A stretch of DNA of 63,081 nucleotides, counting the filler, from Reticulomyxa filosa (Eukaryota; Protista; Foraminifera), in the NCBI GenBank assembly GCA_000512085.1. It is 19 parts of 19 records of this genome, joined end to end, with 100 filler letters (N's around TTAATTAATTAA, not from the genome) between each part and the next. Parts side by side here need not be neighbours in the genome. Positions count along the whole stretch, not along the records: positions 23,628 to 25,363 come from ASPP01030016.1; 18 more parts are not named here. The stretch is one strand, 5' to 3'. The notes under the pieces are model-generated. The model worked only from the letters and a program-made list of their open reading frames with translations, was not told the DNA's origin and ran no database searches. Shown here piece by piece: positions 23,628 through 30,947 of this stretch (the stretch's first letter is position 1; every line of letters starts with the position of its first letter). Both the position numbers and the translations under genes were made by a program.

Positions 23628-24692
23628 AAGATTACCGCTGCTCCGCTGCGCAAGAGTTCGAGCGCGCTCTTCCCCATAGCCAGCTTCGATCAGCGACTGC
23701 CGAATTTGGTCAATAGTAGGATTCGGAATAATTGCCCGAAATGGATGTGGGATGCCGCCAGGGCGTCCACCCAACACTATCCCATGTCGAGATCGTCTAG
23801 CTTTTTCGATCAGGCGAACGCTGGAGGAGTCCTGATCATTAAGTGGAAAATCCGCAACTAGTATAAGACGTTCTTTATGCTCTGCAATTTCCGCCCATGC
23901 ATCGCTCGATGGGACAATTACACAACGACCTCTAGCGTCAGTGCGGTTTTCTTCATCGAGGTGCTCGATAAACGCCGAGACAAAATCGCCAACTTGATCG
24001 GGGAAATGTGTATCGAGTTTTAATTCCGTTGCCTTCTGATCGAAAATCTCACCCAAGCGAGTCCGCGCGAGGTCTCGATTGCTTAGAAATGTGGTGGGTA
24101 GCAGAGGTGGCGGAGCGCCTATGTCCCGGAGTAGTTTCCACCTTTCTTCGGGCAACTCAAGTCGCGCACTTGGAAGCCCCATTTCTTTCGCAAGCCAGAT
24201 TGCAACAGATGGAAGCTGGTGCAGCCAGTCAATTATTCTCGTGCCATCAATGATGCGGACATCAGCCCATTCGCCGCGGTTCTTCCGATTCTCTATCCAT
24301 TTGTTTTGACTGTCCTCTTTCCAAGTATGTGACCAACTACGGCGGCCTGAATGTGGAGTGACGAAGATGAAGCTAGAGACGTTTCGAACTGCTTCCGGCA
24401 CATCATTAGTCAAAGATTTGTAGTCGGCAGTCGCTTTGTCGCCAGCTTCAAGATTGGTCCCGATTTCCCAATAGGAGCGCCCTTGTGGAATGAAAGGATC
24501 AAAGGGATAGTCGACATCAAGAACGCCGTCGGGACCGTGCTGCCCGATGCTATCCCCAAGAGGGAAGCGCCTCTCTTTGGGTCTGGGCGACGACGCGGCA
24601 ACTAGTCGATAAACGAGTTCGACTATTGCTCCTTGTGCTGCGATTGAATTTCCTCTCGTCCAATCGTCCAACTGATTTTCAGTTACGAACAT
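23628..24692 (-). CDS. Bacterial PD-(D/E)XK-like nuclease fused to a degenerate STAND-like NTPase; 3'-truncated; candidate defence protein
   Basis: Intronless ORF of more than 355 aa with a G-rich SD-like site (AGGGGGCGG) upstream. GPDG...SYWEIGT...KATADY...FIFVTP...WADVRIIDG, then FLSNR..RL, LILVAD, ARTLAQRSSGNL. Confidence 0.72.
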
Positions 24693-24839
24693 GTTGTTCC
24701 GCCCCCTGAATCAGCGTGGAAGAGTTCGCCGATTCTGGCCAGATTCTAGAGGAGCTTGTCGAGAATACCAAACAAGCGGCACGCGCCGCTGCAGCAGTAG
24801 TTTAAGCGTATGACCTCATCACGCATTCTTGCAACTCTC

Positions 24840-24874
24840 GGCAGACGGAGGATCCAAAGAAGATCCGCCTTGCC
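24840..24874 (-). terminator. Imperfect GC-rich stem-loop just after the oxidoreductase stop
   Basis: GGCAAGGCGGATC-N7-GATCCTCCGTCTGCC on the - strand. No clear U-tract. Confidence 0.3.
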
Positions 24875-24892
24875 GAAGCCCGGAGAGCGTTC

Positions 24893-25363
24893 CTACTGCG
24901 CCGCGATCTTCGACGCCGCCGGGGCGAAGTCGCGTTCCATCTCGCGGCGGAGCTTCACGGCGGTGAGCGATTCGTCCATCACCACGTCGGCATAGGTCAG
25001 CGACTGGCCGGCCTTGATCGGCTTCACCAGCTTGACGTTGTGGGCGAGGCCGAGCGGCAGGCTGCCGAGGCCGGTCGACTTTTCCGACGGGAACAGCTTG
25101 CCGTAGACCGTGTAGCCGCCCTCGCCGTCCAGCATCTCGCCGGGCTTGAGGTCGCGCTTGGCGGTGGCGATGACGTCGGCGTGGAAGCCGATCGGCGTGC
25201 CGGTCGGTTCCTTGCGCAGGCCGATCGAGGCGACCGACATGCCGACCTCGAGGCCGATCAGGTGCCAGCGCTTGTACATGACGGAATACCGGCCGCTGGG
25301 TCGGTCTGCAGCATGTACTCCTCGAAGCAGTTCTTCTGGTACTCGGTGGCGGCCTCGAACACG
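24893..25363 (-). CDS. Bacterial homoserine-dehydrogenase-like NAD(P) oxidoreductase with C-terminal SAF domain, 3' part
   Basis: YKRWHLIGLEVGMSVAS...DVIATAKRDLKPGEMLDGEGGYTVYG...LPLGLAHNVKLVKPIKAGQSLTYADV. Spot GC count 43/60 at 24901-24960. One 1-nt shift near 25298. Confidence 0.88.
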   Translation of the reverse strand, partial: RVRGRHRVPEELLRGVHAADRPSGRYSVMYKRWHLIGLEVGMSVASIGLRKEPTGTPIGFHADVIATAKRDLKPGEMLDGEGGYTVYGKLFPSEKSTGLGSLPLGLAHNVKLVKPIKAGQSLTYADVVMDESLTAVKLRREMERDFAPAASKIAAQ

Positions 25364-29814: not shown

Positions 29815-30947
29815 TCCCTGAGTGTTTAGTCCATGGGAAAGAGGACGCAACAAATAACTTTGCCCGAGGTCATTGTACAATCGGTAAACAAATTATCGAT
29901 AAAGTAAATGACCGATTGAGAAAGTTGGTTAACAACTGTGACAACGTGATGGACTTTGTAATTGGACACAGTGTATGCGGAGGCACTGGCTCAGGGTTGG
30001 GCGCCTTAAGTTTGGAACGTTTGGCGGTTGATTATAGAAAGAAGACAAAAATTAGCTTTGAGATATACCCTTCACCAAATTTGTCCACATGCGTAGCAGA
30101 ACCTTATAATGCGTTGTTGGCGATGCATTGGTTGTTGGGCCACACGGAAGTTTCTTTGTCATTAGATAACAAGGCCATTTATGGGATCTGCCAAAAACAA
30201 TGCGAATTGCCAAACCAGATGTAGATAACTTAAACAAATTAATTTCGAAAGTTATCTCCGCCATGACCGCGTCTTTGCGATTTAGCGGTGAATTAATGTA
30301 GATTTGAACGAGTTTCAAACGAACTTAGTACCTTTCACTCGTTTACACTTTATGACTACTGTGGAATGGGCCTAATTATTCCAAAAATTGACGTATCAAC
30401 CGCGCCAAACGATATCCAAAAAATAACAGATAACTGTTTTAAGCCAGCAATTGGTTTGTGAAATAAAATGAATTTGATCCAGCTGAAGATAAATACATGG
30501 CCATTTCTTTAAATTATAGTGGTGACATAAAATCGAAAGAAGCAAATGCAACTGTCCAATGGTTAAAATCAAATAATAAAATCACATTAGTCGAGTGGTG
30601 TCCAACTGGCTTTAAGATTGGATTTAATGATGTACCAGCAGTAACTTTAGAATCTGATGATATTGGAGCATTTAGTAAAAATGCAGTAACGATTGCCAAC
30701 AACACAGGCATTTCTCGAGTATTGAGTAAACACATTGCTCGAAGTATGATATTATGTACTCCCAAGAGCATTTGTGCATTGGACGTAGGAAAAGGAATGG
30801 AAGGAGAATTTGCTGAAGCAGTGAAGATTTAGGCTTTTTGGAAAAGATTATTTGGACGTGTTGAGTGAACAACTAACCGATGATATGGGAGGTGACAACG
30901 CTGGCGATGACGCAGGTGATAATGACAATCAAAACTTTTTGTCGTGA
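29815..30947 (+). pseudogene. Divergent alpha-tubulin pseudogene
   Basis: [58 protein letters not shown]. Multiple frameshifts and substitutions at invariant residues. Confidence 0.92.

What the first reader, a model, noticed from the sequence alone, without database searches (positions are those of the whole stretch)
23628..24692. Candidate anti-phage sensor-effector: restriction-like nuclease fused to an apparently inactive STAND NTPase
Seen: residues ~1-165 carry PDG...WEIG...KA..DY...FVTP...W.DVR.ID, a PD-(D/E)XK-like pattern with ExG in place of ExK. Residues ~200-355 show STAND landmarks in the right order: FLSNR..RL, a Walker-B-like LILVAD, and the LAQRSSGNL helical motif. Where the Walker A should be the sequence reads KLDTHFPDQV, with no GxxxxGK. 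Known: nuclease-STAND-sensor architectures (Avs, bacterial NLR-like) are phage pattern-recognition systems. Inference: this is the N-terminal part of a large NLR-like defence protein whose NTPase is degenerate, so it may be activated without nucleotide exchange. I cannot assign it to a named system.
Basis: partly seen in the sequence, partly recalled or inferred. Interest (0 to 1): 0.75.

Follow-up and report, generated by a model that had tools for sequence, protein, structure and literature searches.

The report
Avs8-like phage sensor lacking ATP motifs
This is the first 355 residues of a roughly 1,265-residue bacterial protein, on a stray bacterial contig. It is a distant full-length relative of the antiviral receptor Avs8, with a nuclease head and no ATP-binding loop, and it likely kills infected cells on sensing a phage capsid protein. 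An ATP-motif-less Avs8 is already in print.

Summary
Observation confirmed. The ORF (24692→23628, minus strand) is cut by the end of a 1,736-bp bacterial contig that lies among AT-rich contigs. It encodes the first 355 aa of a ~1,265-aa family (2,589 clusters at 50% identity). AlphaFold (pLDDT 94.5) gives a restriction-nuclease fold plus a P-loop/STAND fold; Foldseek's top hits are Avs3 and Avs4. Walker A is absent in 98 of 98 aligned members, while D55, E76 and K86 are kept in 96–97 of 98.

The family aligns end to end with Avs8/PD-λ-4A (HHalign 99.75%, 1,145 columns, ~15% identity; sensor alone 98.5%), and KLDTHFPDQ sits on Avs8's P-loop. It is a separate, Walker-less sister group. Lee et al. 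(Nature 2026) already report a capsid-triggered KpAvs8 with degenerate Walker motifs. I could not read its sequence, but K. pneumoniae carries members of this family. Type I RM genes flank 24 of 60 close homologue groups.

Likely mechanism: capsid binding, nucleotide-independent oligomerisation, then DNA cleavage (untested; the complex-prediction queue was full). The scan found this family twice before on other DNA. Side find: NBD-less variants with a BASS11-like amyloid relay.

The parts
23628..25363 (.). 1,736-bp bacterial contig (GC 0.56) between N/TTAATTAATTAA spacers, among AT-rich contigs; most likely a contaminant or co-assembled bacterium
   Evidence: SAF gene matches proteobacterial proteins at up to 65%
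23628..24692 (-). 5' 355 codons of a ~1,265-aa Avs8-like, Walker-less STAND gene; cut by the contig end; GC 0.51, GC3 0.46
24183..24692 (-). Mrr-like PD-(D/E)XK nuclease domain, residues ~1-170
   Evidence: AF2 model; VIA Z 9.7 to AF1548, 9.1 to FokI, 8.2 to MspJI; HHalign 97.2% to the PD-λ-4A nuclease
24423..24530 (-). Predicted catalytic residues D55 (24528-24530), E76 (24465-24467), K86 (24435-24437), plus conserved D90 (24423-24425)
   Evidence: kept in 96, 97, 96 and 90 of 98 aligned members; D55 aligns with PD-λ-4A D55, and E76 with its Q78
23718..24167 (-). Degenerate STAND nucleotide-binding domain, residues ~176-325; keeps the Arg of the FLxxR motif (R206, 95 of 98)
23988..24026 (-). 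Site of the lost Walker A (ELKLDTHFPDQVG), aligned on PD-λ-4A AVRITGLSGVGKT
   Evidence: HHalign; 0 of 98 members have Walker A here, 21 of 21 PD-λ-4A-like proteins do
23850..23867 (-). Degenerate Walker B site (LILVAD), aligned on PD-λ-4A IMILDN
   Evidence: D281 kept in 39 of 98
23628..23717 (-). Helical domain HD1, start (residues 326-355); the WHD and helical sensor lie beyond the contig end
24743..24790 (-). Intergenic promoter-like site (24771-24743) and terminator-like hairpin (24790-24775); weak consensus matches only
24893..25363 (-). 3' part of a SAF-domain oxidoreductase gene (GC 0.68, GC3 0.96 over 24893-25279); the host gene after whose stop the defence gene lies
   Evidence: Pfam SAF

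Best explanation
This gene fragment encodes the nuclease head and the Walker-less STAND domain of a single-protein receptor homologous along its whole length to Avs8 (PD-λ-4A), which likely defends against phage by binding a major capsid protein and then destroying DNA. Proposed steps: (1) The protein rests as an autoinhibited monomer (inferred from Avs receptors). (2) The C-terminal helical solenoid binds a newly made HK97-fold capsid monomer (shown for EcAvs8A, genetically shown for KpAvs8, untested for this family). (3) Binding alone drives oligomerisation through the dead NBD/HD1/WHD scaffold, with no ATP switch (inferred from the family-wide loss of Walker A and from NBD-less variants). 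(4) The clustered D55/E76/K86 nuclease heads cut phage and host DNA and abort the infection (shown for EcAvs8A, inferred here). The gene is horizontally acquired cargo behind a SAF-domain gene in a bacterium that was co-assembled with an AT-rich genome.
For: Homology: HHalign of family (A1, 98 rows) against PD-λ-4A-like proteins (A2, 21 rows) gives 99.75%, E 2e-27, 1,145 collinear columns. Nuclease alone 97.2%, sensor alone 98.5%, reversed controls ≤0.6%. PD-Lambda-4_A was the only PADLOC model to hit the non-HTH part repeatedly, at matching positions: 4 of 8 and 15 of 35 full-length members; no AVAST model appeared among the hits shown. Fold: Avs3 and Avs4 are Foldseek's top two; the C-terminal body is an α-solenoid. 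Precedent: KpAvs8 has degenerate Walker motifs and is toxic with 3 of 23 MCP rows. K. pneumoniae proteins P0408, P0410 and P0415 belong to this Walker-less family (853-855 bits against 40 on the Avs8 profile). Context: type I RM within two ORFs in 24 of 60 homologue groups, 8 between hsdM/S and hsdR, and a PADLOC-labelled neighbour in 31 of 60. Other heads replace the nuclease, or the NBD is deleted.
Against: Identity to PD-λ-4A is only ~15%. Pairwise BLAST gives only E 2e-6 over 126 residues. The NBD+HD1, WHD and distal sensor parts do not align significantly on their own (11.3%, 4.2% and 28.1%). The tree puts the family on its own side of a long branch, so the ligand may differ. KpAvs8's sequence could not be read. 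EcAvs8A appeared to need ATP hydrolysis, which this protein could not do. In 16 loci from whole genomes, 0 had type I RM within two ORFs and 5 had a PADLOC hit at E≤1e-30 within three ORFs. No random-gene control was run for the neighbourhood counts. The rest of this particular gene is not in the window.
Confidence: 0.68

Rival explanations
1. Anti-phage nuclease-sensor of the Avs8 lineage whose sensor has moved to a different trigger (another virion or replication protein, or a host-damage signal). It would be a separate Avs family rather than the KpAvs8 type.
For: Separate side of the tree with 100% local support; distal sensor half aligns poorly to PD-λ-4A (28.1%); it is sometimes kept right beside a Walker-A-intact PD-λ-4A-like gene (L029, L030, L067), which would be redundant if both saw the same ligand.
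Against: The proximal sensor aligns at 98.0%; a degenerate Avs8 is reported to respond to MCPs, and to a different set than EcAvs8 (3 against 9 of 23 rows, two shared), which could explain co-retention.
Confidence: 0.2
2. The Walker-less protein does not act alone. It is the sensor half of a paired-NLR system and signals through an ATP-competent Avs8 or another partner.
For: Tandem with a Walker-A-intact PD-λ-4A-like gene on Rhizobium plasmids (L029, L030; a third plasmid shows adjacent hits) and divergent from a PD-λ-4 operon in L067.
Against: 0 of 80 close metagenome loci hold a PD-λ-4A-like ORF, and 1 of 16 whole-genome loci does. The nuclease residues are intact. KpAvs8 was toxic in the published screen, though I did not see what its construct contained.
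Confidence: 0.07
3. Not primarily anti-phage: an addiction or regulatory protein of mobile elements, as the 'HigA antitoxin' and 'XRE regulator' database names suggest.
For: Many members carry an N-terminal HTH_3 and are so named; they occur on plasmids (24 records).
Against: The names come from the ~90-residue HTH only; the window's clade has no HTH; the body is homologous to a proven anti-phage receptor and sits in type I RM operons.
Confidence: 0.05

Closest known systems
KpAvs8 (Lee et al., Nature 2026, PMC13581612)
   Same: Avs8-type protein with degenerate Walker A and B motifs, said to suggest no ATPase activity (Extended Data Fig. 11 legend). K. pneumoniae encodes members of the window's family.
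   Different: Its sequence is in a supplement too large to read, so identity with this family is likely but untested. The K. pneumoniae members I found carry an extra HTH and are only ~27% identical to P0002.
EcAvs8A / PD-λ-4A (PADLOC PDLC03991; PMC12236752)
   Same: Same length class (1,283 against ~1,265 aa) and the same order of Mrr-like nuclease, STAND NBD and helical sensor; collinear homology end to end.
   Different: Has intact GxxGxGK[ST] and Walker B Asp (21 of 21 rows) and a D…Q-x-K nuclease site (20 of 21), and appeared to need ATP hydrolysis. The window's family has neither Walker motif, uses D…E-x-G…K, is ~15% identical and scores far below the PADLOC model's true members (10-22 bits against 105-2,516). 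No PD-λ-4B hit was seen among the neighbours of close homologues.
Avs3 / Avs4 (PDB 8dgc, 8dgf)
   Same: Nuclease–STAND–helical-repeat architecture; top Foldseek hits of the 355-aa model (E 1.5e-4).
   Different: Only fold-level likeness (TM 0.23-0.32, 11% identity). They bind terminase and portal and keep an ATP-binding P-loop (entry titles; P-loop recalled).
Bab/Agp BASS11 amyloid system (10.1101/2024.11.07.622273)
   Same: Applies to a variant of the family, not to the window's gene: a 106-aa HetE-N/GapS6a gene ends in a motif with the Q…D-N spacing of Bab Q92/D99/N100, and the next gene starts with the same motif.
   Different: The receptor is this family's WHD-sensor rather than TPR-GreA/B-PIN. 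The window's gene has a fused nuclease and no such motif.

Membership tests
Avs8 / PD-λ-4A | Sensor domain homologous to the Avs8 sensor (the paper groups families by sensor sequence and structure clusters) | tested here: met
   On full-length homologues, as the window lacks this part: HHalign of residues 521-1264 gives 98.5%, E 2e-15, reversed control 0.3%; the distal half alone is weak (28.1%). The paper's own cluster table could not be read.
Avs8 / PD-λ-4A | N-terminal Mrr-family PD-(D/E)XK nuclease | tested here: met
   HHalign 97.2%; REase fold; D55/E76/K86 conserved, with Q-x-K replaced by E-x-G…K.
Avs8 / PD-λ-4A | STAND-fold central domain | tested here: met
   AF2 model matches P-loop/AAA+ domains (Z 7-8.6) and Avs3/Avs4; collinear with the PD-λ-4A NBD in the full alignment, though not significant alone (11.3%).
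Canonical PD-λ-4A (PADLOC model) | Intact Walker A GxxGxGK[ST] and Walker B Asp; strong score on PDLC03991 | tested here: not met
   0 of 98 with Walker A, D281 in 39 of 98; no PADLOC hit for the window protein, 10-22 bits for full-length members.
PD-λ-4 two-gene operon | Downstream PD-λ-4B gene (reported dispensable) | tested here: inconclusive
   The window's downstream DNA is missing; no PD-Lambda-4_B hit among 136 representative neighbours of close homologues.
KpAvs8-type degenerate Avs8 | Same sequence clade as KpAvs8 | not testable with these tools
   Supplementary Table 6 and the models are in files too large to read; only indirect support from K. pneumoniae members.
Avs8 / PD-λ-4A | Triggered by HK97-fold major capsid protein; DNase activity; phage defence | not tested
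   Needs experiments; the structure-prediction job for sensor plus T1-like capsid never ran.
Pfam iSTAND / nSTAND / NACHT domains | Hit to the Pfam model | tested here: not met
   No such hit above noise for the window protein or 8 full-length members (best nSTAND6 E 0.24 in the sensor).

The most novel reading that the evidence does not exclude
This is a large, still uncharacterised sister family of Avs8, distinct from KpAvs8, in which the STAND switch died once, early, and the receptor works with no nucleotide at all. The dead NBD is only a spacer: relatives delete it and fuse another nuclease straight to the sensor, or replace nuclease and NBD by a BASS11-type amyloid motif that relays to a separate Bab-like killer. 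One sensor would thus run three signalling modes: fused nuclease, NBD-less fusion and amyloid relay.
Probability: 0.3. Interest if true: 0.62.

Novelty: new member of a known kind. Interest (0 to 1): 0.35.

Why it matters
STAND/NLR receptors are thought to need nucleotide binding to switch on, and EcAvs8A appeared to need ATP hydrolysis. A widespread sister family with no Walker A gives a natural test of whether ligand binding alone can drive an NLR-like receptor. The family is also nearly invisible to PADLOC, Pfam and NCBIfam and is often misnamed 'HigA antitoxin', so defence inventories miss it. Against this, the concept is already noted in print for KpAvs8, the window holds only 28% of one gene on a stray contig, and this scan has reported the family twice before.

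Tried and rejected
Pfam, PADLOC and NCBIfam on the window protein: nothing significant. PDB sequence search with the protein and with the profile: nothing relevant. The search for related loci in genome contigs: 0 and 1 loci (the second pattern lay outside the 355-aa query). No own genome is held. ESM Atlas: only unnamed or HigA-named clusters, no structure search. Foldseek and VIA on the 1,086-aa model: generic α-solenoids and AAA+ domains, no specific match; no Avs8 entry appeared. A maximum-likelihood tree did not finish; FastTree was used, with no outgroup, so the direction of loss is inferred from STAND knowledge. Complex prediction of sensor with a T1-like major capsid protein: queue full, never run, no verdict. 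Sequencing runs: none holds half the contig's words; four laid runs cover mainly the SAF gene, so the missing 3' part was not recovered and no habitat is claimed. Paper searches for degenerate or inactive STAND defence systems, Avs8/KpAvs8, PD-lambda-4, GAPS6 and BASS11 showed no paper devoted to this clade; most subscription journals are not covered. Rejected: that the gene is GapS6a (that name belongs to the small upstream gene in a variant); that it belongs to the AT-rich host genome (GC, codon use and bacterial homologues); and obligate pairing with intact Avs8 (0 of 80 close loci).

Full report
Setting. The window is a chain of 19 small contigs separated by N/TTAATTAATTAA spacers. The finding lies on a 1,736-bp contig (23628-25363, GC 0.56); the others have GC 0.25-0.45, and one carries tubulin-like ORFs (motif recalled). 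The contig holds the 3' part of a SAF-domain oxidoreductase gene (Pfam SAF; up to 65% identical to proteobacterial proteins; GC3 0.96) and, 200 bp downstream on the same strand, the ORF in question (GC 0.51, GC3 0.46). In three of four laid metagenome runs, contigs leave the window's sequence right after the SAF stop (24891-24894), and one contig joins the SAF end to a diverged copy of the ORF's start. I read this as foreign cargo at a variable site in a bacterium co-assembled with an AT-rich genome (inference). No whole genome is held.

Observation. It has 619 longer homologues at E≤0.001 among 7,991 candidates; the 120 listed are 55-73% identical and nearly all 1,261-1,289 aa. HMMER over 50%-identity representatives finds 2,589 at E≤0.001 and 115 at E≤1e-30. 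Of the 29 differences listed inside the ORF (29 further rows of that table were not shown), 25 are at third codon positions. The window thus holds about 28% of a real gene. A profile of the family matched 12 of 401 genomes sampled from one phylum, two of them cross-hits to PD-λ-4A-like genes, and 11 of 351 from the family of G212.

Fold. AlphaFold2 on alignment A1 gave pLDDT 94.5 and pTM 0.91. Foldseek's two best hits are Avs3 and Avs4 (E 1.5e-4, TM 0.23 and 0.32), followed by AAA+ ATPases. VIA-align matches residues ~1-172 to restriction-type nucleases (AF1548 Z 9.7, rmsd 2.4, 110 aligned; FokI Z 9.1; MspJI Z 8.2) and residues ~174-355 to P-loop domains (ClpB NBD1 Z 8.6, rmsd 3.9, 151 aligned); these Z values are middling. 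A model of residues 176-1261 of homologue L071 (pLDDT 85) shows NBD, helical domains and a long α-solenoid that matches only generic HEAT/ARM proteins.

Motifs. In 98 aligned members (window protein included), D55 is kept in 96, E76 in 97, K86 in 96, D90 in 90 and R206 in 95. None has a Walker A at residues 206-250, and D281 is kept in 39. The nuclease therefore looks active, with the Lys probably moved to the next helix (inference), and the NTPase looks dead across the family.

Identity. The window protein has no Pfam, PADLOC or NCBIfam hit. Full-length members hit PD-Lambda-4_A weakly but at matching positions in 4 of 8 and 15 of 35. I gathered 21 PD-λ-4A-like proteins; the 13 I scanned score 105-2,516 bits on that model. 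Profile against profile gives 99.75%, E 2e-27, over 1,145 collinear columns at 15% identity; KLDTHFPDQVG falls on RITGLSGVGKT and the Walker-B site on IMILDN. By part: nuclease 97.2%, proximal sensor 98.0%, whole sensor 98.5%, but NBD+HD1 11.3%, WHD 4.2% and distal sensor 28.1%; reversed controls ≤0.6%. Pairwise BLAST is weak (E 2e-6). A FastTree of 51 rows puts 36 Walker-less and 15 PD-λ-4A-like rows on opposite sides of one long branch (100% local support, no outgroup). So this is a sister group of canonical Avs8, not a close member of it.

What is known. PMC13581612 / bioRxiv 10.64898/2026.01.04.697583 (seen: abstract, sections on STAND classification and on the 13 families, passages, Fig. 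5a source data) names PD-λ-4 Avs8, an MCP sensor. Its Extended Data Fig. [quoted passage not shown] In the source data KpAvs8 depletes 3 of 23 MCP rows (ZL19, Pal001, EcoS-Sa179lw) and EcAvs8 9 of 23. KpAvs8's sequence lies in files I could not open, and these bear directly on novelty. K. pneumoniae proteins P0408, P0410 and P0415 belong to the Walker-less family (853-855 bits against 40; P0408 27% identical to P0002), while its canonical copies keep GLSGVGKT; that KpAvs8 is one of the former is likely but untested. PMC12236752 / 10.1101/2025.07.02.662641 (seen: one section and passages) shows EcAvs8A binding λ gpE (KD 127 nM), capsid-triggered DNase, a dispensable B gene, and an apparent, not conclusive, need for ATP hydrolysis.

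Context of homologues. The best 80 of 459 metagenome loci collapse to 66 groups at 90% identity, 60 with a neighbouring ORF. Type I RM genes lie within two ORFs in 24 of 60, the gene lies between hsdM/S and hsdR in 8, and 31 of 60 have some PADLOC-labelled neighbour, one of them only by a weak helicase match (labels were carried from one to four representatives per cluster). No random control was run, and related loci are not independent. More distant members in 16 whole-genome loci show less: 0 with type I RM within two ORFs and 5 with a PADLOC hit at E≤1e-30 within three. Members also occur on 24 plasmid records and 13 viral contigs. A Walker-A-intact PD-λ-4A-like gene is adjacent in L029, L030 and L067 but in 0 of 80 close loci.

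Modularity. The same body carries an added HTH (hence the 'HigA' names), or a metallophosphoesterase in place of the nuclease (P0201); the same nuclease head sits on a TPR-GreA/B-PIN protein (P0165). In E. coli L054 another head is fused straight to the WHD-sensor with no NBD. In L003, L053, L062 and L063 the nuclease and NBD are gone and a 106-aa gene precedes the sensor (HetE-N in the two scanned, named GapS6a in L053). The two proteins share a motif, and the small protein has the Q…D-N spacing of Bab's BASS11 residues Q92, D99 and N100 (10.1101/2024.11.07.622273, seen: abstract, one section and passages). That paper's main text does not mention GAPS6, HetE-N or PD-lambda. GAPS6 itself is described with a TPR-PIN partner (10.1101/2023.03.28.534373, passages). 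These variants show the NBD can be dropped, which fits an ATP-free switch.

Mechanism and verdict. Shown here: architecture, motif loss and retention, end-to-end homology to Avs8, and defence-type neighbourhood for the close clade. Inferred: capsid sensing, nucleotide-free oligomerisation, DNA cleavage and abortive infection. The complex prediction that would have probed capsid binding never ran because the queue was full. Two earlier notes of this scan describe the same family on other genomes; I read them after forming my view and they are not independent support. Interest 0.35; 0.62 if the family proves distinct from KpAvs8 and nucleotide-independent.

Noticed in passing
L053:6001-9119 (E. 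coli P2-like prophage, NZ_CP050998.1); L003:7555-10649; L062:2474-5589; L063:8031-11140: Two-gene variant: a 106-aa HetE-N/GapS6a (Bab-like) gene followed by a ~930-aa WHD-sensor of this family with no nuclease and no NBD. Both share a BASS11-like motif (C-terminus of the first, N-terminus of the second). Looks like amyloid signalling wired to an Avs8-like sensor; found in 7 of 5,426 E. coli genomes at full cover. Not seen in the papers searched.
   Followed up: partly
L054:4546-8088 (E. coli NZ_CP060748.1): 1,180-aa protein: a different ~270-aa head (no Pfam hit; nuclease-like by recall) fused directly to this family's WHD-sensor with the whole NBD deleted; cluster of 213 members.
   Followed up: partly
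L029:5766-13726; L030:3819-11846; L067:1444-10000: Walker-less family gene directly beside a Walker-A-intact PD-λ-4A-like gene: tandem on Rhizobium plasmids, divergent in L067, where the family gene is split in two ORFs. Possible paired receptors or plain island co-location.
   Followed up: partly
metagenome loci, e.g. L077, L079, L088, L102, L115, L119, L135, L149: The gene is inserted between hsdM/S and hsdR of type I RM operons in 8 of 60 groups of the close clade.
   Followed up: yes
proteins P0201 and P0165: Domain swaps: a metallophosphoesterase head on the dead NBD and sensor (P0201); this nuclease head, 63% identical, on a TPR-GreA/B-PIN body (P0165).
   Followed up: partly
window 25292-25309: Contigs of all four laid runs show a one-base insertion near 25297 relative to the window, so the SAF gene's reading frame here is probably broken by an assembly error and the gene runs to the contig end.
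   Followed up: no
window 29916-30832 and the whole window: Tubulin-like ORF pieces and AT-rich, low-complexity contigs indicate a fragmented eukaryote assembly; the 23628-25363 contig is the only one above GC 0.45.
   Followed up: no
RefSeq/UniRef names: 1,350-1,380-aa members are named 'HigA family addiction module antitoxin' or 'helix-turn-helix transcriptional regulator' from a short N-terminal HTH alone, which hides the family.
   Followed up: yes
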